IMG/VR virus record: IMGVR_UViG_3300028045_001344
Location: 32,001-96,000 of that record
Length of the DNA stretch: 64,000 nt
From: a virus
Direction: 5' to 3' (one strand)
Shown here: positions 928 to 40,362 of the stretch, piece by piece
How positions within the stretch are numbered: the stretch's first letter is position 1
How the letters are laid out: each line of letters begins with the position of its first letter
Made by a program: the position numbers and the translations under genes
Notes under the pieces: model-generated
The model's input: the letters and a program-made list of their open reading frames with translations, nothing else
The model's database searches: none
Told to the model about the DNA's origin: nothing

Positions 928-2790
928 TTAGATAAATTTAACTTCACATGCGCCACCGGCACATGCTACTTCACCAGACAAATTAGTATTGTCATCCACT
1001 TCTATAATCTTGGTTAAGTCAATCTCCTTTAATGAATCGATCATACTATTGTATGTAGCCTCATCACAGTCTTCAAATGGTGCCTGGACATAGTTTCCGC
1101 CGCTAAACGGAAGGACAGATAGTCCATTATAAAATTCACGATTCTTCCACATCCATTCGCCCACCTCATCCCATTCATGATCTTTGATAGAAACTGTAGC
1201 ACTAATGTTATGGGTATTGTTTCCTGAATTGTGACCCGGACGAATCCATTTCTCTGAAAATCCTTTCACTCGTTGCAAGAGTTGTAGGGCCGTTTCATCA
1301 CGTAAGATTGCACCTTCGGGGGCTTTTTGAGGGACCGAAATCACGGCTGTGTCGTGTGGTCTGAAATATTCATCCTCTACTAACTCTGGATGATTGGCTG
1401 ACAGGTAATGATAAATATCTTCGTTCTTTCCGACACGCAAGCGACGAATATAATAATCACTATGCCATGCGTGTATCCCACTAGAACAGCCAAGCACAAT
1501 AGAAGAAGTTCCGGCTGGCTTGATGGTGGTTACTCTTGCGGCGGATCGAATACCAATCAACTCGGCAACTTTTTTGTTTTCCTCTACTGCAATTTGTGCA
1601 GCTTCTTCAAGATCAAATTCCTGTACTTTGCCAGAGCCAACGCCGGTCATACTCACTCCAACTAATGCTTCACGCTCTGTGGTGCGTTGCCAAACAGATC
1701 TCAAATAATGAAACTGTGTATATCCAGCCTGAAGCGTTCCCAGGAAAGATGCTGCTCGCACTCGCTCATTTAAATCTTCTTGACTCGTTACATCGGAAAC
1801 GTTTACTTCACAAAGATTGCAGAACTGAAAAGGTCGTAAGGCAATTTCGCAACAAGGATTAGTTCCCCAATCCTTATCATTAGTAAAATAAATTCCTGGT
1901 TCTCCTGAGTTAGAAAGTTGTATGCGTTGCCAGAGTTCTTTAAAAAATTTCTTGCGTATGCGATGTCTTACAAGAGAGGCACTGTTGTTCGCTCTAGCCC
2001 GTTGGGGATTTGTCTCCCACCAACTACCAGACTTACAGGAAATCATTTCTTTATCGTCCGCTGAAAACAAACTAATAAGAGCAGCACGTCTTATTCCCCC
2101 TGCCAAAACTGCGTCTGCGATGTGGCAAACAATATCATGAACTTCAATGGGCTCAAGCTGATCACCGTCGAGCTTCTCATTTAAAATTCCTTTAATCTGG
2201 CGGATACACGTCTTGAGTGGTTCTGGACCAGGAGCTTTGCCACCAGAAGTTACAAGCTTTGCACCCTTGGATCTAATATCGCTAAAGTCAAAATCTATTG
2301 TGGAGGTTCCCTCAAAATAAGAGCGCATCAATACTTTAACAGCATCAGCCCATCCCTCGATAGAGTCACCAACTAAAAAACGGCGCTTACGATCTTCTCG
2401 GGGCTTGCGGATCTCTGGTAGCTTTTCTACATGATGTTTTTGTACTGAAAAGCCAACACCAGTTCCGCCTAAAAGCAAAAAAAGAATTTCACTAAAAGCT
2501 CGCCAATCATCGACAGGCAAATAGCCACAGTTATAAATACGGTTAGGGCTAATTTCAATTGACTTCCCCGCGAACTGCATTGAACGCATAGAGGGAAGAA
2601 CCTTCCTGTCTTCCACATATTTGTATGCCGCATCTATTTCTCCATTAAGCATCGTATATTTTTTCCGATGCATTTCTTTATTTCTTCCAACAAGTTCCTT
2701 CCAGTTTTCTCTACGATTTTTTTCCTCCATATGTTTCGCATATTTCATAAAGACAGTTATGTCTGATAAGATCTTGCTTGAGATGTCCAT
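928..2790 (-). CDS. nrdJ: class II (adenosylcobalamin-dependent) ribonucleotide reductase
   Basis: TNPCCEIAL active site, FCNLCEV, TIKPAGT, C-terminal ACAGGACE redox pair; no class I small subunit adjacent. Confidence 0.93.
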   Translation of the reverse strand: MDISSKILSDITVFMKYAKHMEEKNRRENWKELVGRNKEMHRKKYTMLNGEIDAAYKYVEDRKVLPSMRSMQFAGKSIEISPNRIYNCGYLPVDDWRAFSEILFLLLGGTGVGFSVQKHHVEKLPEIRKPREDRKRRFLVGDSIEGWADAVKVLMRSYFEGTSTIDFDFSDIRSKGAKLVTSGGKAPGPEPLKTCIRQIKGILNEKLDGDQLEPIEVHDIVCHIADAVLAGGIRRAALISLFSADDKEMISCKSGSWWETNPQRARANNSASLVRHRIRKKFFKELWQRIQLSNSGEPGIYFTNDKDWGTNPCCEIALRPFQFCNLCEVNVSDVTSQEDLNERVRAASFLGTLQAGYTQFHYLRSVWQRTTEREALVGVSMTGVGSGKVQEFDLEEAAQIAVEENKKVAELIGIRSAARVTTIKPAGTSSIVLGCSSGIHAWHSDYYIRRLRVGKNEDIYHYLSANHPELVEDEYFRPHDTAVISVPQKAPEGAILRDETALQLLQRVKGFSEKWIRPGHNSGNNTHNISATVSIKDHEWDEVGEWMWKNREFYNGLSVLPFSGGNYVQAPFEDCDEATYNSMIDSLKEIDLTKIIEVDDNTNLSGEVACAGGACEVKFI

Positions 2791-4233: not shown

Positions 4234-5217
4234 TTAAGTGCCACGGAGTAAATAGTCTCGGTGGTCGGCAAGAAACGATCTAAATTTCTGAAATAATGGA
4301 TTCCAGTTGTATTCATGTATGCCATCAGTCGCCATCATTTTTAACACTTCGGTTCTATTGAGGGTAGGGGCAAACTGTTCTACTGTGTCTTTTATATGTA
4401 GTGAATTTTTAACAGAAATAGAGGGAGAATAAAGTTGCATTAATTTATAATTTAGTTCCACCTTTTTCTTCTCCTTTAAAATATCTTTATATAATTTGAG
4501 CCCAGTCTCATCACTTCTGCAATACTTAAACACCTCGTCGGGAGTATAAGATTTTTCTTCCCGCAAGAAACTTAATTTTTTAGATATTGTCTTCATGCCC
4601 GCGCCCTTTATGCCCGGTAAGTTATCAGACTTGTCACCATCAATGGCTCGGGCAAGCGCGAAATTGTTAGGATGAATATCAAACTCCTCAAGGATTCGAT
4701 TCTTGTTTAAGAAGATGTCCTTGATCGGTTTATACACCAGCGTCTTGTCGTCACACAGTTGATAAAAATCTTTGTCCATAGACACAATAATCTTTATGTC
4801 TTCTTTGAGTGAAGGCATATGACAAATGTATCCTATCACATCGTCAGCCTCAATGTCTTCTACCATCAATTGTGCGACGGGCATCTTGTTAAGATACTCA
4901 ATTGTGCGCTTCATTTGATCATAACGATTTTGTGTTTCTTCTAGAGCATCCATACCGCTATAGGCTCGGTTTAGTTTGAGTGGCTTGCGCCCTTCTTTGT
5001 ATTGCTTCGCCAAGGTTCTGCGCTTGGCACTACCACCTCCACCATCCCAAACAACAATTATCTTATCTGGATTTATCTCTCGTGCTGTCTTTTGTAAGGA
5101 CATCAAGAAACCTTTCGTTCCACCAATGGGTGATCCCGTCGCACTAATGCTAGGGTTCATAACATAGTTGCGAATGAATGTATTCATCGCGTCAATGATT
5201 AAGATTTTATTCGCCAT
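4234..5217 (-). CDS. 5'-3' exonuclease / flap endonuclease (T4 RNase H-like)
   Basis: IIDAMN, VVWDGG, YKEGR, EADDVIG, SMDKDFYQL, GDKSDNLPGIKGAG motifs. Confidence 0.92.
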   Translation of the reverse strand: MANKILIIDAMNTFIRNYVMNPSISATGSPIGGTKGFLMSLQKTAREINPDKIIVVWDGGGGSAKRRTLAKQYKEGRKPLKLNRAYSGMDALEETQNRYDQMKRTIEYLNKMPVAQLMVEDIEADDVIGYICHMPSLKEDIKIIVSMDKDFYQLCDDKTLVYKPIKDIFLNKNRILEEFDIHPNNFALARAIDGDKSDNLPGIKGAGMKTISKKLSFLREEKSYTPDEVFKYCRSDETGLKLYKDILKEKKKVELNYKLMQLYSPSISVKNSLHIKDTVEQFAPTLNRTEVLKMMATDGIHEYNWNPLFQKFRSFLADHRDYLLRGT

Positions 5218-5600
5218 CGCGCTTCGACCTTGTTGAAATTATCGGGGAAATGCTTCTTTAGAAACCTAAGCATCTGACCCGTGTTACGACTCACTGCTTG
5301 TACGTCAAGAGCAGAGTTCTCTGTATTATAAGAAAAAACCATCTGTTTGTTGAGAGTGAGGAAGGAGCCATCCATAAAATATAGCCTGATCATACTATGC
5401 TTGTCCCATAAATTTGGCGCAAATGGGCCGGGGCACAATTCTTTCACCTTATTTAGTAGATCTTTCTTCTCCTTCATTTCACGCCAAACTTCTTGCTCTA
5501 CTCTGCGCGTGTTATGTTCAAGGAGAGCATCCGTTTTCTCTATCCGTCGTTGCTTGGTTCTGTCATCGAGAACAAATTTTGCCCAACTAGGAATGGTCAT
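5199..5600 (-). CDS. hypothetical protein
   Basis: 133 aa ORF overlapping both neighbours in operon fashion. Confidence 0.6.
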   Translation of the reverse strand: MTIPSWAKFVLDDRTKQRRIEKTDALLEHNTRRVEQEVWREMKEKKDLLNKVKELCPGPFAPNLWDKHSMIRLYFMDGSFLTLNKQMVFSYNTENSALDVQAVSRNTGQMLRFLKKHFPDNFNKVEARWRIKS

Positions 5601-6723
5601 TTTGCTTTACCCCCTCAACATCATCACCATAAAAGTCTTCTGACTTGCCGGTCTTGGTTTCAAATTTACGAATAACTTCTTCATCCATAATATCATAAAC
5701 AAGTTTGGCAAACTTTTCGTCGGTCTGCATTAGCTTAGGGAAGGTTGCGCCTTGGAATTTCTTATCGTATCCATCAAGCGTAAACCACGCTCCACTATTC
5801 TTTAACTTGTCCGATGTTTTGATCGCAGTCAACAAGGATTCATCATTGAGGATACCAACATCCTCGCCTCCCCATAGAATTTTAAAGTTACAGATGCGAC
5901 CCTGTGTTCCAAACTTGGATTTCTCTAGCTTGGCTTTCACTTCGCTGCCGATTCTAAAACCTGCTTCATCTTCTACAAAGGTCTTCTTTCCTTTTAGACC
6001 CGTGAGCCATATTCTTAATGAATAGGCATAGATCATAGCCTTACCACCAGGAGTAAACCAGGGTTGCGAAAGCATCATCATTGGGTTAGAGACATTAATA
6101 TTTGTCTTGAGTTGGTTCAGGACCAACAAGGTTGATTGTGTTCTCGATAAGGACACCACCAATTTCTTCATACCCAAAGATAGAACGCGAGGCATTTGTG
6201 CCATAGAAGATTGGGGATTGAAATCCTTTTCCAGATCCGCACGACATGGAGTCATCGCGAGTGAGTCAATAATAAATAAGAAACGAGTGTCGGGATCACC
6301 AGCCATAACGGTTTCCATTGATTCCAATACCTGCTCAATATCATCAGGCTGGATTATGATAACACTATCCTCGCCATCTACAGTGCAACCAAGTTTCTCT
6401 AAAAACTCTTTGCTCATTGTAGATTCAGAATCAAAGTAGAGAACTTTAATATTCTTCTTCTGTGCTTCCCTCGCTACTTGTCCAGCCATATAAGACTTGC
6501 CTGAACTTTCTAAGCCAGCGATCTCGGTGCAGCGACCAACTGGGATACCTGCGAGTTGACCACGACAGGTAATGGAGTCGAGCCATCGTGAGCCTGTGGA
6601 GATCCAATCCTTTACATCAGCCGGATTCTCTTGATCGCCAGTAAACGCAATTGTTCTTCCCGCTTTTTTATTTATTAGTTTTAAAATATCTTTCGATGAT
6701 AAGTTTCCGTTGCTCATAATCAT
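5587..6723 (-). CDS. recA: RecA/UvsX recombinase (start probably 6723 rather than 6771)
   Basis: GLESSGKS Walker A, YFDSE, IIDSLA, LNQLK, TPGGKA. An AGGAGAG SD precedes the ATG at 6723, and the longer start runs through a terminator. Confidence 0.93.
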   Translation of the reverse strand: MIMSNGNLSSKDILKLINKKAGRTIAFTGDQENPADVKDWISTGSRWLDSITCRGQLAGIPVGRCTEIAGLESSGKSYMAGQVAREAQKKNIKVLYFDSESTMSKEFLEKLGCTVDGEDSVIIIQPDDIEQVLESMETVMAGDPDTRFLFIIDSLAMTPCRADLEKDFNPQSSMAQMPRVLSLGMKKLVVSLSRTQSTLLVLNQLKTNINVSNPMMMLSQPWFTPGGKAMIYAYSLRIWLTGLKGKKTFVEDEAGFRIGSEVKAKLEKSKFGTQGRICNFKILWGGEDVGILNDESLLTAIKTSDKLKNSGAWFTLDGYDKKFQGATFPKLMQTDEKFAKLVYDIMDEEVIRKFETKTGKSEDFYGDDVEGVKQNDHS

Positions 6724-6735
6724 GCCCTCTCCTAC

Positions 6736-6796
6736 AAAAAAGAAAGCCCCGTGGCTCGATGAACAAACCAATAAACAAAAAAGTCACGGGGCTTTC
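6736..6796 (-). terminator. intrinsic terminator after SSB gene
   Basis: 12 bp perfect inverted repeat GAAAGCCCCGTG/CACGGGGCTTTC with a large loop, followed by a U-tract on the minus strand. Confidence 0.65.
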
Positions 6797-6818: not shown

Positions 6819-7550
6819 CTACGCTGATAATTCCCGAATGGCATCATCAACACCGGAAGGCGCGGTGGCGCTAACAGCTTCCATCGTGCCGCCAGAAGGA
6901 TCAAGATACGATTCCAAAATCGCCTGAACCTCGGTGGTGGTTTTTTTGGTAAACAAAGCATCCACATCAGGAATTGAATCCAAAAGAGCCTTGATCTCGC
7001 CTTTAGGGGCAAGTGCAGAAGACTTACGTTTTGGAACCAAATTGGTCTGCGGAAATGCACCCTTAGTTTTCGGCAAAGTATAAGTCAATGTAAAATCAAC
7101 TCCTGTCTGTACCTCGGTGATGTCACCGTAATCAGGATTCAAGACATAACCAAGCAACGCTTCGTAAATTGTCTTTCCGTAACCCCAGATGCGAACACCC
7201 GCTTCTTCTTCACCACGCACAATTACGGGTGAGAAAAATCTCTGACGAACAAAAAGGCTCTTTGCCATTTTTTTGCTCTCATCAGTTCCCTCTTGCCATA
7301 GTTGTGAAGCGAATTCACAAACCGGACAACCGTCACCAAACTGCCGCTTGGGACACAACACACCACCACGAACATTATCACCTAAGTTATAATGAAAGTG
7401 GAAAACCTTGAACGGATCTCCATCCTCAGTTGGTACAAGTCGAATCTCTTGATCCCCCTCGGTTGGTCGCCAAAAAGCATTATCGCTTTTCTTTCCACCC
7501 GATTCGGATTCCTGTAGTTTCGCTCGCATCTTTGCTAAATCTAATGCCAT
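6819..7550 (-). CDS. single-stranded DNA-binding protein (gp32-like)
   Basis: FWRP...IRLVP, HFHY, CPK...CPVCE zinc ligands, WGYGKTIY, DYGDIT; acidic tail; adjacent to recA. Confidence 0.85.
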   Translation of the reverse strand: MALDLAKMRAKLQESESGGKKSDNAFWRPTEGDQEIRLVPTEDGDPFKVFHFHYNLGDNVRGGVLCPKRQFGDGCPVCEFASQLWQEGTDESKKMAKSLFVRQRFFSPVIVRGEEEAGVRIWGYGKTIYEALLGYVLNPDYGDITEVQTGVDFTLTYTLPKTKGAFPQTNLVPKRKSSALAPKGEIKALLDSIPDVDALFTKKTTTEVQAILESYLDPSGGTMEAVSATAPSGVDDAIRELSA

Positions 7551-7564
7551 TGTATTTTATCTCC

Positions 7565-8440
7565 TTAAGGTGAGGTCGGCAAATCTTCCGACCCCCCAAT
7601 TGTTTTTGTTTGCCCTTGAATGGCTGAAGTATGCGCGACACAATAAATGTAATCTTCATCATAATCAGTTTCAAAGATTCCGTATGAAACCCGCACATCG
7701 GCTTCCATTTTTCTCTTAAGAGAATTCTTTATCTCTCCGAACAAATTGTTTTCTGTTTCCAGTCTCATCTTGTTACAAGCATAATAGTATACCCGATCAC
7801 TCACGTTGTCAAGAGAAAAAAACATCTTATCTACATTTTTTTTTGGCTCCACAAATCCAATAGTAGAAATGCGGGTTCCAATAGGTAAAGAAGAAAAGGT
7901 GTCAGTCACAGGGGGAATGTGATTGAATACATTAATCATATGTAGTGAAGACACGATGGCTTCATTAAGACTAACATAGTGATTCTTCAAGGACGTAGGA
8001 GGTATTGCCCTCTCTACTAAAACGTTGTCCACAAGATAGAGTCGATCAAAAACACCAGATCGAGCATACTCTTGCAGGACATTGAAGACCAAGTTATTAA
8101 TTAATTTTCCTTGTGCTCCTAAAAAATCTTCTTCTGGCTTTATGTATAGCACACTAATGTTACAGTGTCGTAAATATTCTAAAAGAGAAAGTGATGTGAC
8201 GGAGGCTTTTCCGCCGCCGCCTACCACAAATAGAATATCCCCACTCACCCCTTCAAAAAACTTAGTCATATCCGGGCAATTCTTTTCATAATCTTCAATG
8301 TTTTGGCTCTCTTTTAGACTAAACGTATTGGCACTAGGCGACAAGCCTATGTCTATTTTATATGCCTTATATTGAGAATATTGAGCAAAGTTATCTGCGA
8401 TGGCGCAACCTGCTTTGCCTAGTCCGATTACTGTATCCAT
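7565..8440 (-). CDS. divergent tubulin/FtsZ-family protein
   Basis: T1 loop VIGLGKAGCAIA, degenerate signature VVGGGGKAS, YIKP, YLVDN, and N in helix H6 (LNEAI). Confidence 0.72.
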   Translation of the reverse strand: MDTVIGLGKAGCAIADNFAQYSQYKAYKIDIGLSPSANTFSLKESQNIEDYEKNCPDMTKFFEGVSGDILFVVGGGGKASVTSLSLLEYLRHCNISVLYIKPEEDFLGAQGKLINNLVFNVLQEYARSGVFDRLYLVDNVLVERAIPPTSLKNHYVSLNEAIVSSLHMINVFNHIPPVTDTFSSLPIGTRISTIGFVEPKKNVDKMFFSLDNVSDRVYYYACNKMRLETENNLFGEIKNSLKRKMEADVRVSYGIFETDYDEDYIYCVAHTSAIQGQTKTIGGSEDLPTSP

Positions 8441-8617
8441 TTACTTCTCTTTGGTTTCGCCGTATGACACCAGTTCAAACGTGGGGCTATTGCGATATCG
8501 CCCAACATGATTGGAAACCTTCTCGTTGAGCACAATCATTATTGCTTCTGGATCAGTGCTCACTAATGTAACTTCTTCGCCGTTTTCTATATAAACTAAT
8601 TTATATTTCTTGCTCAT
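8441..8617 (-). CDS. hypothetical protein (MSKKYKL...)
   Basis: ATGA overlap with the stop of the upstream gene. Confidence 0.5.
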   Translation of the reverse strand: MSKKYKLVYIENGEEVTLVSTDPEAIMIVLNEKVSNHVGRYRNSPTFELVSYGETKEK

Positions 8618-8922
8618 TCCGAAACCTCTTGTAAAACATAACGCCTCCAAAATCCTCCGCGTTTGCGGTTTTTGATAATCCGTGCCCCTTCAAGATCCCA
8701 TTTATTTATTTCAGCAATTGATAAAAGAACTTCCTGAATGTCCGCTAGTTCTTCTACGCATGGCTCCTCAAGAAACTCTTGAACTTCTTCTGTGAGTTTG
8801 TCCTTGAGTCTTTGTTGATAGTCGTCATTGACGGCTACATAAACTTTGCACTTCTTTCCCTGCTCATTAATAATCTCTGGGATCTTATCTCTCACAAGTT
8901 TGTTATATTTTTTTGTTGTCAT
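8614..8922 (-). CDS. MazG-like / phosphoribosyl-ATP pyrophosphohydrolase-like NTP pyrophosphatase
   Basis: YNKLVRDKIPEII, KLTEEVQEF, EELADIQEV, KRGGF pattern. Confidence 0.8.
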   Translation of the reverse strand: MTTKKYNKLVRDKIPEIINEQGKKCKVYVAVNDDYQQRLKDKLTEEVQEFLEEPCVEELADIQEVLLSIAEINKWDLEGARIIKNRKRGGFWRRYVLQEVSE

Positions 8923-10178
8923 CTAAACCTCTTTAAGTTTCCAAAGTGTGTTCCAAGGCTGGTGTTCACTTTAAACTTTCCTAAATCCGTATCACCGAAT
9001 TTTTTAATTATATCATCGATAAGATCTTTGTCTTCCCGATGAAAGTCAATTACCATGCTATCGTGAATGAGCCCCATTGTAAAGGACTTTTTATTTTCTA
9101 ATAATTTATTTACTGCGATTGCTCTCCTTAAGAATGTATCGGAAGTGGTGCTTTGTATAACTGCATTGAGAGCATGGAACTCGTCGGCTATAATTTTTCG
9201 ACCAAACGGATTGGTGACGACGCTTCCGTCCCAATATTTATTTAATACTTTTCTTTTGTCATAGTGTTTTTCTACTTGGGGAATACCAAGTGATGCACCC
9301 AAAGGGCCATAAAGCCATCCAAAGATTTTGCGCTTGATGTCATCACGATTCAACTTGTGATCTGATAGCCTATTAAAAATTGATCCATGCCAATCATGTA
9401 TGTCCTGTTGTGGTTGCTCTTGATCGTTCAGCGCAAGAAGACAGCGCAACTCCGCTGCATTGAAATCCAATTCGATAAACCAAGTATTCGTTGGTTTAAC
9501 CACTCTCCGGTAATCCTTGCTCATTGTAAGCAGTGGAAAAGAATTTTTATGGGTGGTCAAGCGACCAGTAATCGTCCCAAACATATTGTAGTCAATAAAT
9601 GGTCTTACCGCATTTAGCTTGGAATAAAAACTTCGAGTTTTAGTTTCGTGAAGTTTATCAACAATTTCCTTCGGCTCAATTAATAATTTATGATCTCGGA
9701 TATCAGTTAATAATCCCGACAACTCAACTAAAAAACTATAGTCTTCTGGTTCTGGGATAGTAGATAATACATGTTTTGTTATTTGACTCTTGAGGTTAAA
9801 ATATTCAATTACAAAACTGTGTGGAACTAAATCATAAAAACACTCCTCGTCCAGTTCGCAGAATCCAGTCTGGAAAGATTTAATATAAGCCGAGTATTTT
9901 TTCTTAATGGTGGACCATTCTTTTTTTAATTCATCGGGGCAACACTCGTCAAGGGTTCTCGTCTTGGCATACAAGGACGCATACTTGATACCATAGCCCT
10001 TTAAGGTTGAATGATATGCCCACGTCTTGGAGAGACGCCCATAATCTGGATCTTCTACAATGTGATTGTCGCAATAAATGCTCTTACAGTGTTGTTTTTG
10101 ATCTACGATTTCGAACAAAGAGGTATCTGGTTTATGGTTGGAAAGATCCATCAGGTAGAACAATATCATAGACATCAC
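8919..10178 (-). CDS. compact family A DNA polymerase (polymerase domain; start may be TTG at 10118)
   Basis: TITGRL, motif A ELDFNAAELR, motif B KRKIFGWLYG, NAVIQST, motif C LIHDSMV. Confidence 0.85.
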   Translation of the reverse strand: MMSMILFYLMDLSNHKPDTSLFEIVDQKQHCKSIYCDNHIVEDPDYGRLSKTWAYHSTLKGYGIKYASLYAKTRTLDECCPDELKKEWSTIKKKYSAYIKSFQTGFCELDEECFYDLVPHSFVIEYFNLKSQITKHVLSTIPEPEDYSFLVELSGLLTDIRDHKLLIEPKEIVDKLHETKTRSFYSKLNAVRPFIDYNMFGTITGRLTTHKNSFPLLTMSKDYRRVVKPTNTWFIELDFNAAELRCLLALNDQEQPQQDIHDWHGSIFNRLSDHKLNRDDIKRKIFGWLYGPLGASLGIPQVEKHYDKRKVLNKYWDGSVVTNPFGRKIIADEFHALNAVIQSTTSDTFLRRAIAVNKLLENKKSFTMGLIHDSMVIDFHREDKDLIDDIIKKFGDTDLGKFKVNTSLGTHFGNLKRFR

Positions 10179-13100
10179 GCAAGGTCAAGGCTTTTTGTTC
10201 AGTTATATTTTTGAATTTATTTATTATTTTATCATCCTTGTTTTGAACCGTCAATCCTGATTTGTCCTCGAAGACCCCGTTAGTCTCATGCGCGATGCGC
10301 TGTAATGATTTCGTAAATTTATTGGAATCACTTGATGCCAATGAATTGGAATAGAGATTTTCTATCTGTTTTATCATCGCATCCTCCTCACTAAAGGATA
10401 AGATTCGATCTGATTCAGAAATGCGTATAGCAAAATAAAACTTAAGCCAAAACAAATCATCATATGTTCGCATAAATTCTACATCACTCAATAGTTCGCG
10501 AGTTTCTATCTTCTGAAATGTTCCGTCTCCACATTTATTAAACTGGCTAGTGACAATGAAGGGGTGCTTCGCCACATAAGAGTTATAAAAGTTCAAGGTA
10601 TAGATTTGTAGCAAGTCGATGTCGGTTTCAAAAGATCGGATATATTCACCAGGAGATCGAAGAACGGGAGGGTTGTGCAAATATAAATTATCAAAACTTA
10701 AACGTGGTAACGTCAACCAATCAGCGTAATCCACCACCCACTTATCATAGGCTGATTTTCGCAACTCCCATTCACGTAGCAGCCGTGGGTGGTCATTGAT
10801 GGCTTGAGTATATTGTTCGCGCTTAGTAGAATATTCCTCGACATCCCCAAAAGCCAAAACCCAATCTTTTTCGCGAGGGGGCTCGTCGGGATACGCAGTG
10901 TGACTTCCATAATCAAAAGGAAGTGTTTCGAATGTGTCAAGCGAAGGCTGGCTCTCGGCTTCGTTGTATGGCGTAGTCGTAGATGGAACTTCAATTGGGG
11001 CGCACCCTCCGTCAGATGCAACACTCAACACAAACAAGAGCATATCTGCATATCTGTTAGTATCAGTGGGGTCAAGTGAAATTAAATATCTCACGATCTC
11101 ATCCATTTCTCGGGGAGTGATGGACGGAGATGAAGTGTTCGCGCCATTACTGGCACTTTCCCAGGGAATGATAGCCTCTCTAAATCGAGGGTCATCTACA
11201 AATAAATATCTGGTTGGCTGTTGAGGAAACGTTTCCCCGGCACGTCGATATACTTCACGACGCCATCTTTCATAAGGAGTAAATTGACCATCAATCATGT
11301 TTCCATCATTCCACTGACGGCCGTTCAATATGCGAGCATATGCGCCGCTAAAATCAACCTTCTTAATAACAAAATCGCTCCGATAATTACTTGCCACCGT
11401 GGACAAATTGGTTGAGTCATCTACCCCCGCAGTACCCGCATCGCTAGCTCCGGTTCCTGAACTATTTCGCTGCCACTGAAACCAGTGAAATGGGACAACG
11501 CCCATGCCACTAAATGGTTCGCGAGAATAAGCCACGAAGTATCCAGGGGCGTTGCTGATCCACGATGTTCCAACTGATAGGGGCGGGATCTCGTTTCCTG
11601 TAAGTTGTTTTATGGGAACACCACCCAGAAGTTGAGAACTCAAAATTAGAATAATCTCAAACAGATCAGCCAATGCGCCGCCAAAGAGATCTCCCATTTG
11701 ATCGTCAGGCAAGCCTTTTTCGTAAGAGTTTAAAGAATTTAAGTTCCCACTTCCGTCCGAAAGTTCTCTCGGGACACGGTATGTCTGATATTCATTCCCA
11801 TTACGAAAAGGATAATTTTTAACTGGATAACCACTGTTATCTGGTGTTGCTATTTGATATCGTTCAATCTTTGTTTCACAACTACCAAACACAGGAGGAG
11901 GGTGAAAAATATATCTGTTATTTCCCGCCTCGGTGCCATAAGCTGCGGCTCCTAAAGTTGCGGTGCGGGCTTGCCACTGATTATAAACAAATTGATGAAG
12001 ACATGGTTGCTGCCCGGATGGGAGAGCTTGCCATCCAAAGCCCCCGCGAGGAGATCGTCCAAAAATGTCTGGACCTATTTCGGCTCGGATTACTAATTCC
12101 TGCCAAGATGGGGCTCGCTCTAGAATCCCAGGCTGATTAACTAGGTTAGGGGCTCTATCAAACTTTGAGCCATCTTCATTAGAGGTGATATATTTTATCC
12201 AGCTCGTAAGAAATTTATGCTTGCCAACAATGTCCCACCCCAACCGGGTGCGTAAAAATTCCAACTCGCCAGTCTGGGGTAATTGATCGCCTCCTCTCAA
12301 AACGGGGGTACATAGTCGATTAGCATTACGCCCGAATGGTTGTCCAATCGTGGGATCTAATTCTGGTGACTGATAGCCGCCACCTCCCGGATGAAGACCA
12401 TCCTTTTGTTTCTTGAAAGGAAATGGAAAAAGTTGGTTAGGGCCGAAGCCAGTGCTTATAGTCTCATCAGCCAAGTCTCTCGGCACCTGTGTTCTTGCGA
12501 GCGTAGGCAGATTTGTACCGGAAACTATGAGGTGAACATTCCGGGTTGCTCCAAGCCAGTTAGTATATTCTTGCGTTGAATTCTCATTCCATTCGCGCCA
12601 AACTTCAGCGATTTCCGCTTTGAGTTTGCTGTATATCCATGCAGGACCAAAAGCTTCAGCCGCGTCGGGTGTCATCGCGAACTTATTCGCAGTGGCAGCC
12701 CATGGCAAAGTACAAACATTTACAATAAGTGTAGACACTTCATCGCGCATGTTCCCCCTTTTGTCCTGTAGTTGGAGTTGAATCGTGTGTCTCCCCGAGC
12801 GCACAGGAATAAAATAAACATCAGTTCCCGTAAGGTTTGTGGGCGAAATTGTATCCGGTGAATTGGGAGTAAGGTAAAAGGGTGTTTCAACACCGTGTTC
12901 TTCGTCTTCTAATACTGTCCAAGTATAAGATTTGATTTCACTAGAAAACGTGTTTATGGTACTACCAGCCGCACTTATGCGAATTGGTTGTGGCTTCCAT
13001 GCGCCCAATCCAGTTCGTCGTGAAAATGTACTACCGAATCCACCCACATCATAATACTTATAAACAGTCTCCCGTAATACTTGCCCGTTTCGTGTTTGGG

Positions 13101-14382
13101 GAAGCGGAGCAGTAAGCCATCGGAAATCGTCTAACGTGGTGGGACCATAGGCACCTTGGGAACTTGGAGCACCAACATTGAATTGACCAGTACCCGTGGC
13201 AGAGGGGGCAGCAATATTTATAATTTGAGCTTGAGTTTTATCAGCGTTCAGAGACGCTTCTGGACCCTCAACGAATGAAGATTGAGGTAATATCAGGTCG
13301 GTCGATTGTATCAACGCAATTTCAATCTCATCTACAACTTCTTGAATCTTGAACCTAGAGCGAAGTGGATCGTTACAATCTAATAACTCCGCGATATATC
13401 CAATCGCACCTTCTTCTTGACCGGGTTTTTTGAATTCCACCTTTTGATTTTTCAAATCACCAAACCACTCGGGAGCACAGGGAAGTGGTAGTTGTGGTTG
13501 TGATCCACTCATGGGCGGTTCGACTGGTGCTTCGGGGTAACGACTCATATATTTTTGCATCACCTCTGATTTCAAGTCTGCGACCAACCGCCAAGGTGCA
13601 TTTTTATCTACCCAAAAACCAAATAGACGAGCAGCACGGGTAAAGAAAACAAAGTTTACATCACCAATATAGTCGTCATATTTTACTTGATCGTCGCCAT
13701 GACTTGCTAACTCCAATTCAATAACAATTCCGGTAGTCGTAATGGGGCAATATTTAGAAGTGATATATCCAGTTCGGGTGAATGGGAAATCGGGCTGCAC
13801 AGTTTTAAGATAAGTCTGAAACAGTTTCATGAAATCTTTAAAATCAGTAAGCTCTCTTTTATTTTTTCCTTGGTCTAGAAAGGTTGCGGCGAAGCCTTCA
13901 TACATAACTGTTATGTGTTCATAGTAGCGATTTTGAACTGAGGTCCATCCTCTTTTGGGTTCCATGGCTAGGAACTTTGTATCTTCAGTAAATATTTTTC
14001 CTTCGTTTGCCGCGATACGCATGTAATTTTGTAAATCCGTAAAGGCATCCACAACAAAATTTAATGCAAAGGTGTCGCCGGTTTCGCTCGGGAGTCTCTT
14101 TAGATATTTTTCGTCTACAAAGACTGGATTATAGTCTGTATCTATTTTTCCATAAAGCCCACGGTTATACCAAATATCAATGGGCGTGGGCACTTCATCG
14201 TCGTTATAGGGATACGCGAGATCTTTATATTCTTTGCGCTCAATAAAGAGTTCTTCAGAAGGCATTGAGTTTGTGGCTACAGGTTTAATTTCTTCGCCGG
14301 GTGCTGGTTTTTGGTTAGCTAAAACCTCGGAAGTCAAATAAGCATCCACTAGAGGTATTTCGTTGTTCTTCTTTTTAGCCAT
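10132..14382 (-). CDS. large putative virion/baseplate-associated protein with a PKD/Ig-like segment
   Basis: 1416 aa, directly downstream of the baseplate hub gene; SYTWTV...FIPVRSGRHTIQLQLQDKRG resembles a PKD domain. Confidence 0.5.
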   Translation of the reverse strand: MAKKKNNEIPLVDAYLTSEVLANQKPAPGEEIKPVATNSMPSEELFIERKEYKDLAYPYNDDEVPTPIDIWYNRGLYGKIDTDYNPVFVDEKYLKRLPSETGDTFALNFVVDAFTDLQNYMRIAANEGKIFTEDTKFLAMEPKRGWTSVQNRYYEHITVMYEGFAATFLDQGKNKRELTDFKDFMKLFQTYLKTVQPDFPFTRTGYITSKYCPITTTGIVIELELASHGDDQVKYDDYIGDVNFVFFTRAARLFGFWVDKNAPWRLVADLKSEVMQKYMSRYPEAPVEPPMSGSQPQLPLPCAPEWFGDLKNQKVEFKKPGQEEGAIGYIAELLDCNDPLRSRFKIQEVVDEIEIALIQSTDLILPQSSFVEGPEASLNADKTQAQIINIAAPSATGTGQFNVGAPSSQGAYGPTTLDDFRWLTAPLPQTRNGQVLRETVYKYYDVGGFGSTFSRRTGLGAWKPQPIRISAAGSTINTFSSEIKSYTWTVLEDEEHGVETPFYLTPNSPDTISPTNLTGTDVYFIPVRSGRHTIQLQLQDKRGNMRDEVSTLIVNVCTLPWAATANKFAMTPDAAEAFGPAWIYSKLKAEIAEVWREWNENSTQEYTNWLGATRNVHLIVSGTNLPTLARTQVPRDLADETISTGFGPNQLFPFPFKKQKDGLHPGGGGYQSPELDPTIGQPFGRNANRLCTPVLRGGDQLPQTGELEFLRTRLGWDIVGKHKFLTSWIKYITSNEDGSKFDRAPNLVNQPGILERAPSWQELVIRAEIGPDIFGRSPRGGFGWQALPSGQQPCLHQFVYNQWQARTATLGAAAYGTEAGNNRYIFHPPPVFGSCETKIERYQIATPDNSGYPVKNYPFRNGNEYQTYRVPRELSDGSGNLNSLNSYEKGLPDDQMGDLFGGALADLFEIILILSSQLLGGVPIKQLTGNEIPPLSVGTSWISNAPGYFVAYSREPFSGMGVVPFHWFQWQRNSSGTGASDAGTAGVDDSTNLSTVASNYRSDFVIKKVDFSGAYARILNGRQWNDGNMIDGQFTPYERWRREVYRRAGETFPQQPTRYLFVDDPRFREAIIPWESASNGANTSSPSITPREMDEIVRYLISLDPTDTNRYADMLLFVLSVASDGGCAPIEVPSTTTPYNEAESQPSLDTFETLPFDYGSHTAYPDEPPREKDWVLAFGDVEEYSTKREQYTQAINDHPRLLREWELRKSAYDKWVVDYADWLTLPRLSFDNLYLHNPPVLRSPGEYIRSFETDIDLLQIYTLNFYNSYVAKHPFIVTSQFNKCGDGTFQKIETRELLSDVEFMRTYDDLFWLKFYFAIRISESDRILSFSEEDAMIKQIENLYSNSLASSDSNKFTKSLQRIAHETNGVFEDKSGLTVQNKDDKIINKFKNITEQKALTLRDVYDIVLPDGSFQP
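10160..10188 (-). promoter_or_regulatory. putative sigma70-type promoter for the replication block (TTGACC-N17-TATTGT)
   Basis: Near-consensus boxes with 17 nt spacer exactly at the structural-to-replication gene boundary. Confidence 0.45.
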
Positions 14383-39153: not shown

Positions 39154-40362
39154 TTATCTCCCGTCTAATCCATTCACCGACAAGACCGCAACAAGCCCTG
39201 GTAAGTTCTCTTTGATATATACCCCAGAAAACAAGGTTTCGCACCTTCCACCGACATAAGACACGGCTGCGTCTAAGTGTTTGCTAATCTCTGGATCTGT
39301 TGCCATTTCCGGTGTAATAATTAGTAGCATCGTTCCTGTAACGGACTTGCCTTTAGGCATGGGACATGGAGAACGCTTAATACAATTTTGATAAATAGCT
39401 GCGCCAAGTTTAGGATCTGCTGGATTTGCTATCATAGTCGAGCCCAAAAACATTCTTCCCTCGGTAGCCAAGCAACGCCCAAGATCTTTTGAATCAAAGG
39501 TTTGAACATAAGACTTTTCCGAAGCTAGTTTTAAAACTTGATGAAACAACTTAGCAAATGTAGAATTCGCTACGGGATACATATTTAGGATACCAACCTT
39601 TCCGCGAAGCAATTGTGTCTGTCTCTCGTTATCAATAAGAATATGAGGATGTGGTGCTACATCATTAGCTAGGGAGAGCGCATTTTTAGAGATAGTGTGG
39701 TTAAGAGATTCTTGCGCCGTGGGCCAAGATATAATATAAACCACTTTACCTTCACCCTGCACCGAACTAAGATACCGCTCGAACACTTCATGAAGTTCTA
39801 CGCAGGAACTTCCGGTTCCTCCGCCTCCGCCAGCTAAAACAAAAATCCAATCCACTTTTCCAAGTTTGGTACGAATAGCGTCTTCAACAACCGCACTGTT
39901 TTCACTAAACACTTTCTTTCCATAAGCGACATTTTTGGCTACGCCATCAGCGTCAGGAATAAGAATTAAGTGGTCCGCGTCTACACCTTCCGGCTGATCC
40001 TTTTCAGTAGTATTGAGAAGTAGTGTTTTATTAAATCCTAAATCTAAAAAAGCTTTGGCTAGTTTTCCACCAGCACCACCAACACCAATAAAGGCACAGT
40101 TTAAAGCAGACACCGCTTCATTCTCGGGAAGTTGCTCATCATGCTGAATTGTGATTTCCTCACCATAGTGCTCAATAAACCCAAAGTCTTCGGCATCAAA
40201 AGTTTCAAAAGAGGTGCTAGTCACTGGCTCATCATTTGGTAAACTAAAAGCATCTGCTTCTGTGATTAATTCCTCTTTTACTTCTTCTTCCGGTTTTGTT
40301 TCTTCAATTTCACCAGCAGTAATTTCTTCGTCTACATCTGGTTCTTGCTCGTCGTCGATCAT
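39154..40362 (-). CDS. tubulin/FtsZ-family GTPase with acidic N-terminal extension
   Basis: FIGVGGAGGKLA, LLNTT, GVAKN...G, signature AGGGGGTGSS, LIDNE, N in H6, T7-like TFDSKD. Confidence 0.88.
   Translation of the reverse strand: MIDDEQEPDVDEEITAGEIEETKPEEEVKEELITEADAFSLPNDEPVTSTSFETFDAEDFGFIEHYGEEITIQHDEQLPENEAVSALNCAFIGVGGAGGKLAKAFLDLGFNKTLLLNTTEKDQPEGVDADHLILIPDADGVAKNVAYGKKVFSENSAVVEDAIRTKLGKVDWIFVLAGGGGGTGSSCVELHEVFERYLSSVQGEGKVVYIISWPTAQESLNHTISKNALSLANDVAPHPHILIDNERQTQLLRGKVGILNMYPVANSTFAKLFHQVLKLASEKSYVQTFDSKDLGRCLATEGRMFLGSTMIANPADPKLGAAIYQNCIKRSPCPMPKGKSVTGTMLLIITPEMATDPEISKHLDAAVSYVGGRCETLFSGVYIKENLPGLVAVLSVNGLDGR

What the first reader, a model, noticed from the sequence alone, without database searches (positions are those of the whole stretch)
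7565..8440. Second, degenerate tubulin-family gene inside the replication operon: possible two-tubulin system
Seen: T1 loop IGLGKAGCAIA is retained, the signature is altered to GGGGKAS, no T7 DxxD is recognisable, and the gene sits between PolA/MazG-like genes and SSB/RecA. The phage thus carries a probably GTPase-impaired tubulin among replication genes and an intact one among head genes. Inference: either a heteropolymer/nucleator pair (by analogy to alpha/beta, gamma tubulin or BtubA/B), separate roles in DNA positioning versus capsid transport, or a dominant-negative inhibitor of host FtsZ.
Basis: partly seen in the sequence, partly recalled or inferred. Interest (0 to 1): 0.8.

Follow-up and report, generated by a model that had tools for sequence, protein, structure and literature searches.

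The report
Eroded tubulin-fold gene in replication operon
An uncultured marine T4-like phage carries a small protein with a full tubulin/FtsZ shape but worn-down GTPase motifs, fixed behind a mini DNA polymerase gene in hundreds of related phages and independent of the phage's second, normal FtsZ-like gene, so a "cytoskeleton" fold may have been recruited to DNA replication.

Summary
The ORF at 7565-8440 (minus strand, 291 aa) is real. The predicted structure (pLDDT 94) is a complete two-domain tubulin/FtsZ fold: Z 20-24 to CetZ, TubZ, tubulin and FtsZ, against Z 8.9 for the best ordinary Rossmann enzyme.

It belongs to a large, unnamed, phage-only family (610 clusters at 50% identity). In 80 of 80 related viral loci the gene lies between a mini PolA and the gp32-type SSB gene.

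Over 135 representatives the canonical GTPase features are weakly kept. The signature loop is reduced to G-x-[GS]-x-x-[ST]-[GA], and no acidic T7 pair is conserved. A family-specific set is 87-99% conserved: Q-E-Y-A-R-S-G, E-x-Y-E and a C-terminal Q.

A second, motif-intact FtsZ/CetZ-like gene lies at 39154-40362 in the head module. The pair is not obligate. One complete genome and one 102-kb fragment with an intact head module carry the eroded gene but no second tubulin, while 5 of 5 complete genomes with the second tubulin also carry the eroded one.

My best reading is a pseudo-GTPase structural accessory of the replication machinery, made as a unit with the mini polymerase. Its function is untested.

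This scan has already reported the same family in other genomes.

The parts
7565..8440 (-). Eroded tubulin/FtsZ-fold gene (291 aa), the finding itself
   Evidence: ORF. AlphaFold2 pLDDT 94.3, pTM 0.90. Foldseek PDB top hits are all FtsZ/TubZ/CetZ at E about 1e-14. VIA-align Z 20-24 to CetZ/TubZ/tubulin/FtsZ.
8396..8428 (-). T1-like loop, residues 5-15 (IGLGKAGCAIA)
   Evidence: G6 86%, G8 99%, G11 82% over 135 family representatives. Aligned to the GVGGAGG loop of the second tubulin by hhalign.
8201..8221 (-). Degenerate signature (T4) loop, residues 74-80 (GGGGKAS)
   Evidence: Family-wide only G75 (94-96%) is firm. G77 is 56%, S80 71%, G81 55%. Some clades read GASLSS or AGDSLL.
8054..8074 (-). 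Family-specific motif Q-E-Y-A-R-S-G, residues 123-129 (end of helix H5)
   Evidence: Q123 99%, R127 99%, S128 96% of 135 representatives, making these among the most conserved positions of the family. It is not a canonical tubulin motif.
7871..7924 (-). T7/H8-equivalent region, residues 173-190, without catalytic acidic pair and without a predicted helix H8
   Evidence: DSSP of the model shows a loop with a short bridge. No conserved acid is present, and the acidic residues seen in about half of the members do not correlate with the nucleotide-site motifs.
7568..7615 (-). Flexible C-terminal tail ending GGSEDLPTSP, residues 276-291
   Evidence: pLDDT about 50. The tail is conserved in close relatives. 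Other clades carry other conserved tails or none. It occurs nowhere else in this genome.
8441..8650 (-). 69-aa ORF whose TAA stop directly abuts the ATG of the tubulin-fold gene
   Evidence: Sequence. Found only in close relatives. No family match.
8614..8922 (-).
   Evidence: No family support for the name.
8919..10178 (-). Mini family-A DNA polymerase (divPolA1-like), upstream partner in the operon
   Evidence: Pfam DNA_pol_A 8.4e-12. Present upstream of the tubulin-fold gene in all loci that reach that far. divPolA1 is described in PMC11348598. Homology to the immuto divPolA1 is weak (6.6e-7).
6819..7550 (-). gp32-type SSB gene, 14 nt downstream
   Evidence: Pfam gp32 1e-13, PHROG 1192 1.8e-27. 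Downstream neighbour in essentially all related loci.
5587..6771 (-). UvsX/RecA recombinase gene
   Evidence: Pfam RecA 1.9e-33, PHROG 97 2.6e-54.
39154..40362 (-). Second, motif-intact FtsZ/CetZ-like gene (402 aa) in the head module; not an obligate partner
   Evidence: phmmer to CetZ 3zid 6e-10. T1, T4 GGGGGTGS and T7 FDSKD are invariant in 21 relatives. Absent from genomes G002 and G003, which carry the eroded gene.

Best explanation
The gene encodes a minimal tubulin/FtsZ-fold protein that has become a pseudo-GTPase. It keeps the two-domain fold and, in this phage, probably still a purine-nucleotide pocket. It has lost the catalytic T7 loop, helix H8 and the glycine-rich signature. I infer that it does not work as a GTP-driven dynamic filament. 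I infer instead that it is a structural accessory of the phage replication and recombination machinery, made as one translational unit with the mini family-A polymerase. Its conserved business surface would be the family-specific residues (Q-E-Y-A-R-S-G, E-x-Y-E, Q275), with a clade-specific flexible C-terminal peptide for docking a partner. It acts independently of the head-module FtsZ-like protein. Shown here: fold, family size, phage-only range, synteny, translational coupling, conservation pattern, and non-obligate co-occurrence. Inferred: loss of GTPase activity, absence of dynamic filaments, and the accessory role in replication.
For: Fold: Foldseek E about 1e-14, TM 0.65-0.69 to FtsZ/TubZ/CetZ. 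VIA-align Z 20-24 over 257-273 residues, with a sharp drop to Z 8.9 for SDR Rossmann enzymes. hhalign to the co-resident tubulin family gives probability 90%, E 1.7e-6.

Conservation over 135 representatives at 50% identity or less: Q123, R127 and G8 99%, S128 and Q275 96%, E49 91%, E52 90%. By contrast G77 is 56%, S80 71%, G81 55%, N139 79%, Y154 71% and N159 82%. The T7 region has no conserved acid. 46 of 135 keep 2 or fewer of 4 signature positions. Erosion of T1, T4 and the base contacts is correlated (r 0.22-0.42).

A member with GIGNAASA and GASLSS loops still models as the same fold (pLDDT 95; TubZ/FtsZ E about 1e-11).

Synteny: polymerase, then (small ORFs), then this gene, then gp32, UvsX, FEN and DnaB in 80 of 80 loci. 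The upstream stop to this gene's start has a median gap of -4 nt, with 61 of 71 at 20 nt or less. The gap to gp32 has a median of 92 nt. In the window, TAA is followed directly by ATG.

Range: phage-only. There is one hit in 185,579 species genomes, and it is the same phage module inside a MAG. Atlas clusters are 100% viral.
Against: There is no direct evidence of any interaction or activity. T1 (GxGxxG), the T6 Asn and the H7 aromatic/Asn are kept in most members, including this one. Nucleotide binding, and even nucleotide-dependent assembly, therefore remain possible. Overlapping stop and start codons are common in phage operons between unrelated functions. The cultured relatives with the same polymerase-SSB-RecA order (Flavobacterium phage immuto, Microcystis phage Mel-JY01) lack the gene and have unrelated ORFs in that slot, so it is not essential for that replication block. 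I could not map the conserved residues onto the model surface because no coordinates are available.
Confidence: 0.45

Rival explanations
1. It is still a nucleotide-binding, filament-forming phage tubulin of the TubZ/RepX or PhuZ kind. It would build static or slowly turning-over filaments that position or segregate replicating phage DNA. The C-terminal tail would serve polymer contacts or an adaptor.
For: It has the full tubulin fold, with TubZ among the best structural matches (Z 22.2, 273 residues). T1, the T6 Asn and the H7 Tyr/Asn are kept in 71-99% of members. Clade-specific conserved C-terminal tails follow a flexible linker, as in TubZ, PhuZ and FtsZ. The gene sits in the replication module.
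Against: The T7 catalytic pair and helix H8 are missing, and the T7 region is the least conserved part. The signature loop is gone in a third of the family while the fold and the family-specific motifs persist. No conserved TubR-like adaptor gene is adjacent: the 69-aa upstream ORF occurs only in close relatives.
Confidence: 0.22
2. It is the partner of the head-module FtsZ-like protein. It would form a heterodimer or heteropolymer, act as a nucleator, or cap the filament end, by analogy with alpha/beta-tubulin, gamma-tubulin or BtubA/B.
For: Both genes are in this phage. All 5 complete genomes that carry the second tubulin also carry this gene. A subunit without T7 could in principle cap a filament.
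Against: A complete 184-kb genome (G002) and a 102-kb contig (G003) with an intact portal-protease module have this gene but no second tubulin. A 104-116-aa ORF fills that slot instead. The genomes without the second tubulin fall in the same, largely unresolved half of this gene's tree as six genomes that have it. The genes are 31 kb apart in different modules, unlike btubA/B. Viral contigs with this family (at least 596) outnumber those with the second tubulin (222). The 5-of-5 result is expected anyway for a core gene of the lineage.
Confidence: 0.08
3. It is a dominant-negative mimic that blocks host FtsZ and so stops host division.
For: It has the FtsZ fold. Loss of T7 resembles the bottom-face capping mutants of FtsZ (established knowledge of FtsZ genetics, not tested here).
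Against: It is only 11-14% identical to FtsZ in structural alignments. Both the top-face loops (T3, T4) and the bottom face are remodelled. Its fixed place and coupling in the replication operon across 80 loci do not suggest a host-takeover gene. The host is unknown.
Confidence: 0.05
4. The N-terminal Rossmann-like domain binds a different nucleotide (ATP, NAD or a dNTP) in classical Rossmann fashion. The protein would then be a sensor or enzyme of nucleotide metabolism.
For: GxGxxG is followed 19 residues later by a conserved Asp at the end of strand 2 (D30, 72%). There are weak profile matches to KtrA/TrkA-N (PDB 5but 3e-4; TrkA_N in 7 of 69 members). A conserved E-x-Y-E and an invariant Arg-Ser could form an active site. 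Nucleotide-metabolism genes lie in the same block (B12-dependent RNR).
Against: The whole two-domain architecture matches tubulin/FtsZ far better than any Rossmann enzyme (Z 22-24 against 8.9). The KtrA match rests on the generic glycine motif, and each single stretch has E 1.9. No enzymatic tubulin-fold precedent is known to me.
Confidence: 0.1

Closest known systems
TubZ / RepX (type III plasmid and prophage partition or replication tubulins; PDB 4ei7, 3m8k, 2xka, 4xcq)
   Same: Both have the two-domain tubulin/FtsZ fold (Z 21-22 over 268-273 residues). Both are carried by a mobile element or phage, are linked to DNA replication or maintenance genes, and have a flexible C-terminal tail.
   Different: This gene has no GGGTG[ST]G signature, no T7 catalytic acids and no helix H8. 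It is about 100 residues shorter, lacking the long C-terminal helix. No conserved TubR-like adaptor gene is adjacent. There is no sequence-level match.
CetZ and FtsZ (PDB 3zid, 4b45, 2vaw, 1fsz; Pfam PF00091)
   Same: These are the best structural matches (Z 20-24; Foldseek E about 1e-14). T1 and T6/H7 positions are alignable through the co-resident FtsZ-like family.
   Different: Pfam PF00091 and NCBIfam ftsZ do not match. The signature, T3 and T7 loops are replaced. Helices H2 and H3 are shortened and H8 is absent. The family is phage-only.
PhuZ (phiKZ-like nucleus-forming phages; PDB 3rb8, 3zbq, 9pm9)
   Same: It is a phage-encoded member of the tubulin superfamily with a functional C-terminal tail.
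   Different: The structural match is weaker (Z 15-16). PhuZ is an active GTPase with dynamic filaments and belongs to the chimallin phage-nucleus system, whereas this lineage is T4-like in its head genes.
divPolA1 gene block of Flavobacterium phage immuto and relatives (Yutin et al. 2024, Virol J 21:200, PMC11348598)
   Same: The replication gene order is the same: mini PolA, SSB, RecA, 5'-3' exonuclease, DnaB. A second 'regular' polymerase lies elsewhere, here of family C.
   Different: The paper does not mention a tubulin or FtsZ gene (0 occurrences). The cultured phages have unrelated ORFs in that slot (two small ones in immuto; 129-, 110- and 428-aa ORFs in Mel-JY01, of which only the 428-aa one was compared).

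Membership tests
Tubulin/FtsZ superfamily (fold level) | Two-domain architecture: Rossmann-like nucleotide-binding domain, core helix H7, and C-terminal beta/alpha domain | tested here: met
   AF2 pLDDT 94.3. Z 20-24 with 257-273 aligned residues to CetZ, TubZ, alpha/beta/gamma-tubulin, BtubA and FtsZ. The next fold class scores Z 8.9. Foldseek E about 1e-14.
Tubulin/FtsZ superfamily (fold level) | Detectable sequence-profile homology to a bona fide member | tested here: met
   hhalign of the family profile against the co-resident FtsZ-like family gives probability 89.9%, E 1.7e-6 over 178 columns in the N-terminal domain. Support is moderate, not strong.
Tubulin/FtsZ GTPases (Pfam PF00091) | Match to the curated family model | tested here: not met
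   No Pfam hit for this protein at E 0.1. Only 5 of 69 relatives touch PF00091, best E 0.082. NCBIfam gives no hit.
Tubulin/FtsZ GTPases (Pfam PF00091) | Signature loop GGGTG[ST]G (T4) | tested here: not met
   The loop reads GGGGKAS here. The family consensus is G-x-[GS]-x-x-[ST]-[GA], with G77 56% and G81 55%. 46 of 135 members keep 2 or fewer of 4 positions.
Tubulin/FtsZ GTPases (Pfam PF00091) | T7 loop with catalytic acidic residues (NxDxxD/E) followed by helix H8 | tested here: not met
   There is no acidic pair in residues 173-190 here, no helix H8 in the model, and no conserved acid family-wide. Acidic residues in some members do not co-vary with the nucleotide motifs.
Tubulin/FtsZ GTPases (Pfam PF00091) | T1 glycine loop and base contacts (T6 Asn, H7 aromatic plus Asn/Asp) | tested here: met
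   G6, G8 and G11 are present (86%, 99% and 82% in the family). N139 is 79% and N159 82%. Position 154 is His here and Tyr/Phe in 81% of the family. Positions were assigned through hhalign, not from a ligand-bound structure.
Tubulin/FtsZ GTPases (Pfam PF00091) | GTP binding, GTP hydrolysis and head-to-tail polymerisation | not testable with these tools
TubZ/TubR/tubC type III partition systems | Adjacent DNA-binding adaptor (TubR) and centromere repeats | tested here: inconclusive
   No conserved small adaptor gene is adjacent. The 69-aa upstream ORF is limited to close relatives and matches no family. I did not search for centromere-like repeats.
Paired tubulins (alpha/beta-tubulin, BtubA/B) | Two paralogues that always co-occur (adjacent in btubAB) and form an obligate heterodimer | tested here: not met
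   The genes are 31 kb apart. This gene occurs without the second tubulin in G002 (complete) and G003, both with intact head modules. Heterodimer formation itself was not testable.
PhuZ / phage-nucleus system | Co-occurrence with the chimallin shell and phiKZ-like core genes | not tested
   The head genes are T4-type (portal, protease and terminase). No chimallin search was run.

The most novel reading that the evidence does not exclude
A tubulin-superfamily protein has been recruited as a nucleotide-independent subunit of a phage replisome, for example as the accessory or processivity partner of the thumb-truncated, exonuclease-less mini PolA to which its gene is translationally coupled. That would be the first tubulin/FtsZ-fold protein with a non-cytoskeletal job in DNA synthesis.
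Probability: 0.2. Interest if true: 0.85.

Novelty: new variant of a known kind. Interest (0 to 1): 0.6.

Why it matters
Every characterised member of the tubulin/FtsZ superfamily is a GTP-driven filament former. This family would add a large, abundant, phage-only branch (over 600 clusters at 50% identity in marine metagenomes) in which selection holds the fold and a new set of residues but not the GTPase machinery. It is also wired into a DNA-replication operon rather than a partition or division system. That gives a concrete case for asking how a cytoskeletal fold is repurposed. It also identifies a missing component of the poorly understood divPolA1 replication block of widespread marine myoviruses. 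Finally, it corrects the attractive 'two-tubulin system' idea: the second tubulin is an accessory of a sub-lineage.

Tried and rejected
(1) Sequence-only identification failed. Pfam, PHROGs, NCBIfam and phmmer against the PDB gave nothing for this protein. A family profile against the PDB found only a weak KtrA/TrkA-N match on the glycine motif.

(2) I rejected the 'different Rossmann enzyme' reading because of the Z 22-24 against 8.9 gap.

(3) tblastn of this protein, the second tubulin and the mini PolA against 50,697 cultured-phage records gave no match.

(4) I looked for a homologue, or a split version, in the same slot of Flavobacterium phage immuto and Microcystis phage Mel-JY01. The profile search and hhalign against the ORFs compared (both small immuto ORFs and the 428-aa Mel-JY01 ORF) were negative.

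(5) I looked for cellular homologues. The one hit in 185,579 species genomes is a phage fragment scaffolded into a WOR-3 MAG.

(6) I tested whether the GGSEDLPTSP tail is shared with other proteins of this genome, as a hub-binding peptide might be. It is unique.

(7) I looked for a link between the tail or signature erosion and the presence of the second tubulin. No consistent pattern appeared.

(8) Acidic residues at positions 184 and 187 in about half of the family could be a shifted T7. I rejected this because they do not co-vary with the nucleotide-site motifs.

(9) The promoter and terminator scan around the gene found no excess over shuffles.

(10) Four literature searches found no description of the family. 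The library is incomplete, so this is not proof.

(11) Conserved residues could not be mapped on the model surface because no coordinates are returned.

Full report
**Observation**

The window is bases 32001-96000 of a 151.5-kb IMG/VR record of an uncultured phage, estimated 83% complete. The ORF at 7565-8440 on the minus strand starts with ATG and encodes 291 residues. It reads IGLGKAGCAIA at residues 5-15 and GGGGKAS at residues 74-80. It has no acidic pair where a T7 loop would lie.

The gene order on the minus strand is as follows.
- A mini family-A polymerase (8919-10178; Pfam DNA_pol_A 8.4e-12).
- A 102-aa ORF.
- A 69-aa ORF whose TAA stop directly abuts the ATG of this gene.
- This gene.
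- After 14 nt carrying an AGGAG site, a gp32-type SSB.
- UvsX/RecA.
- A 133-aa ORF.
- A 5'-3' exonuclease.
- A DnaB-type helicase.
- A B12-dependent ribonucleotide reductase.

The 'MazG-like' name for the 102-aa ORF found no support.

**What it is**

Sequence libraries do not recognise the protein (Pfam, PHROGs, NCBIfam, PDB by phmmer). It is nonetheless far from an orphan. It has 878 relatives at E below 1e-3 among 5.8 billion proteins. An exhaustive HMMER search found 610 clusters at 50% identity. Nearly all full-length members are 270-300 residues long.

With a 69-sequence alignment, AlphaFold2 gives pLDDT 94.3 and pTM 0.90. Foldseek against the PDB returns only FtsZ, TubZ and CetZ at the top (E about 1e-14, TM 0.65-0.69). 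An independent all-against-all structural search gave these scores:

| Match | Z |
|---|---|
| CetZ | 23.7 and 22.3 |
| TubZ | 22.2 and 21.3 |
| Eukaryotic, Asgard and Odin tubulins, gamma-tubulin, BtubA, FtsZ | 18.6-20.1 |
| PhuZ | about 15.5 |
| Best ordinary Rossmann enzyme | 8.9 |

The viral structure library agrees. That criterion is therefore not met: this is a complete two-domain tubulin/FtsZ fold. A profile-profile comparison with the family of the phage's other tubulin gives probability 90% and E 1.7e-6 over 178 columns. It places T1, T4, the T6 Asn and helix H7 in register.

The fold is minimal. Helices H2 and H3 are shortened and H8 is absent. The last 12-15 residues form a low-confidence tail.

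**How degenerate is it?**

I aligned 135 representatives that are at most 50% identical to one another.

Most conserved positions:
- G8 (99%), Q123 (99%), R127 (99%), L84 (98%), S128 (96%), Q275 (96%) and G75 (94-96%).
- Y24 (92%), E49 (91%), E52 (90%) and Y51 (87%).

Apart from G8 and G75, none of these is a canonical tubulin motif. They define Q-E-Y-A-R-S-G at the end of H5, E-x-Y-E where the T3 loop should be, and a Gln after the last strand.

Canonical positions are kept less well:
- G6 86% and G11 82%.
- G77 56%, S80 71% and G81 55% in the signature loop.
- The T6 Asn 79%.
- The H7 aromatic residue 71% as Tyr (81% as Tyr or Phe).
- The H7 Asn 82%.

The T7 region is among the most variable parts. 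Thirty-one of 135 members keep all ten nucleotide-site features, and 46 keep at most two of four signature positions. Erosion of T1, T4 and the base contacts is correlated (r 0.22-0.42). Acidic residues that occur near T7 in half of the members are uncorrelated with them (r about 0-0.16), so they are unlikely to be catalytic.

A member that reads GIGNAASA and GASLSS still models as the same fold (pLDDT 95.2; TubZ/FtsZ E about 1e-11). That model draws on the same family alignment, so it is not fully independent.

The window's own protein is among the better preserved: T1 3 of 3, T4 3 of 4, base contacts 2 of 3. I conclude that the family is selected for the fold and for a new surface or site, not for GTP hydrolysis. 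Nucleotide binding is probably retained in some clades, possibly including this one, and lost in others. This conclusion is an inference from conservation, not a measurement.

**Context**

In all 80 related loci fetched from IMG/VR, down to 40% identity, the gene lies downstream of the mini PolA and upstream of gp32, UvsX, the exonuclease and DnaB.

The gene is tightly coupled to its upstream neighbour. That neighbour is the polymerase in 50 loci, the 102-aa ORF in 19 and the 69-aa ORF in 2. The median gap is -4 nt, and 61 of 71 gaps are 20 nt or less. The gap to gp32 has a median of 92 nt and exceeds 100 nt in 24 of 78 loci. The start positions in that count were inferred from alignments and are approximate.

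The polymerase is probably the divPolA1 type described by Yutin and co-workers for Flavobacterium phage immuto and relatives; its direct match to the immuto polymerase is weak (6.6e-7). That type has a truncated thumb and an inactivated exonuclease, and always sits beside a 'regular' polymerase. The paper does not mention any tubulin or FtsZ (PMC11348598). In this genome the regular polymerase is of family C. No family-B polymerase or beta-clamp N-domain was found in the 83% of the genome that is held.

The nearest cultured phages by portal protein, at about 40% identity, are immuto and Microcystis phage Mel-JY01. Both have the same polymerase-SSB-RecA order but carry unrelated ORFs in this slot.

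The family is phage-only:
- Atlas clusters are 100% viral, and one is automatically named 'Tubulin/FtsZ GTPase domain-containing protein'.
- The only hit in 185,579 species genomes is the same phage module scaffolded into a WOR-3 MAG.

**The two-tubulin idea**

The gene at 39154-40362 is a genuine FtsZ/CetZ-like protein. It matches CetZ 3zid at 6e-10. T1, the signature GGGGGTGS and T7 FDSKD are invariant in 21 relatives. It has an acidic N-terminal extension, and it lies between the T4-type portal and the prohead protease.

Co-occurrence runs in one direction only.
- All 5 complete genomes that carry this second tubulin also have the eroded gene, as do 11 of 20 contigs overall.
- Of 20 contigs chosen for the eroded gene, only one has the second tubulin.
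- The complete 184-kb genome G002 and the 102-kb contig G003 have an intact terminase-portal-protease block. In both, a 104-116-aa ORF occupies the slot of the second tubulin.
- On a tree of the eroded protein, the two tubulin-less genomes fall in the same, largely unresolved clade as six tubulin-bearing ones.
- In IMG/VR, at least 596 contigs carry the eroded family, against 222 for the second tubulin. The search patterns differ, so this comparison is rough.

The eroded gene is thus a core gene of the lineage, and the second tubulin is an accessory of part of it. An obligate heterodimer or heteropolymer cannot be the conserved function. An added interaction in the phages that have both genes is not excluded.

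**Mechanism**

I commit to the following at confidence about 0.45. The protein is a pseudo-GTPase tubulin-fold protein that serves as a structural accessory of the replication and recombination machinery. It is made together with the mini polymerase. It uses the family-specific conserved residues and a clade-specific C-terminal peptide for its contacts. Examples of that peptide are GGSEDLPTSP here, and SYINELDDQDIG or NDNFRLDKEINL elsewhere.

The rivals, with my confidence in each:
- A TubZ/PhuZ-like DNA-positioning filament without hydrolysis (0.22).
- A Rossmann-type binder of another nucleotide (0.10).
- A partner or cap of the second tubulin (0.08).
- A host-FtsZ inhibitor (0.05).

The most novel reading not excluded is a tubulin-fold subunit of the mini-PolA enzyme itself.

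**Novelty and standing**

Four searches of the paper library found no description. This scan has, however, already met the same family in at least eight other genomes and reached similar conclusions about fold and synteny. My own tests agree with those notes on fold, erosion and placement. They also agree that most relatives lack an ordinary tubulin.

This report adds four things:
- The quantitative conservation contrast.
- The correlated erosion of the nucleotide-site motifs.
- The explicit head-module check in genomes without the second tubulin.
- The gap statistics that tie the gene to the polymerase side rather than to gp32.

I class it as a new variant of a known kind: a phage-only, GTPase-eroded branch of the tubulin/FtsZ superfamily. 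Function remains untested.

Noticed in passing
window 39154-40362 (-); L167 (G002:C1:79000-88000) and L168 (G003:C1:63000-72000): The FtsZ/CetZ-like gene sits in a variable slot between a conserved 186-aa head-module gene and the prohead protease. Two related genomes carry a 104-116-aa Cys-rich, probably membrane-associated ORF there instead. What a motif-intact FtsZ-like protein does inside a T4-type head operon is open.
   Followed up: partly
It is present between the polymerase and the tubulin-fold gene in about a quarter of related loci (19 of 71).
   Followed up: partly
window 10132-14382 (-) and 14410-16881 (-): A 1416-aa ORF overlaps the start of the mini PolA by 47 nt, and an 823-aa ORF lies upstream of it. 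Both are conserved, at weak 21-44% identity (68% in the closest locus), upstream of the polymerase in most related loci. I did not identify either.
   Followed up: no
G000:C1:25706-26485 (about 5.5-6.3 kb before the window start): A family-C (DnaE/PolC-type) DNA polymerase, in an open frame of 1131 aa, is the genome's 'regular' polymerase beside the mini PolA. No family-B polymerase and no beta-clamp N-domain were found in the 83%-complete record.
   Followed up: partly
L185 (CP070664.1:2247228-2256046, 'candidate division WOR-3 bacterium' MAG chromosome): A fragment of this phage lineage (polymerase, tubulin-fold gene, gp32, UvsX) is scaffolded, with a 200-N gap, into a MAG presented as a chromosome. 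This is either mis-binning or a hint to the host.
   Followed up: partly
related loci L029, L036, L043, L053, L061, L066 and L030, L041, L044, L063: Different clades of the family end in different but internally conserved 12-residue tails (SYINELDDQDIG; NDNFRLDKEINL; GGSEDLPTSP in the window's clade). Many members have no tail. This looks like exchangeable docking peptides.
   Followed up: partly
window 5199-5600 (-): A 133-aa ORF lies between UvsX and the 5'-3' exonuclease and overlaps both. It has no family match. Its size and place would suit a UvsY-like mediator, but I did not test this.
   Followed up: no
window 928-2790 (-): A 620-aa ORF matches adenosylcobalamin-dependent ribonucleotide reductase (NCBIfam RTPR 5e-76, below the cut-off) at the end of the replication block.
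   Followed up: no
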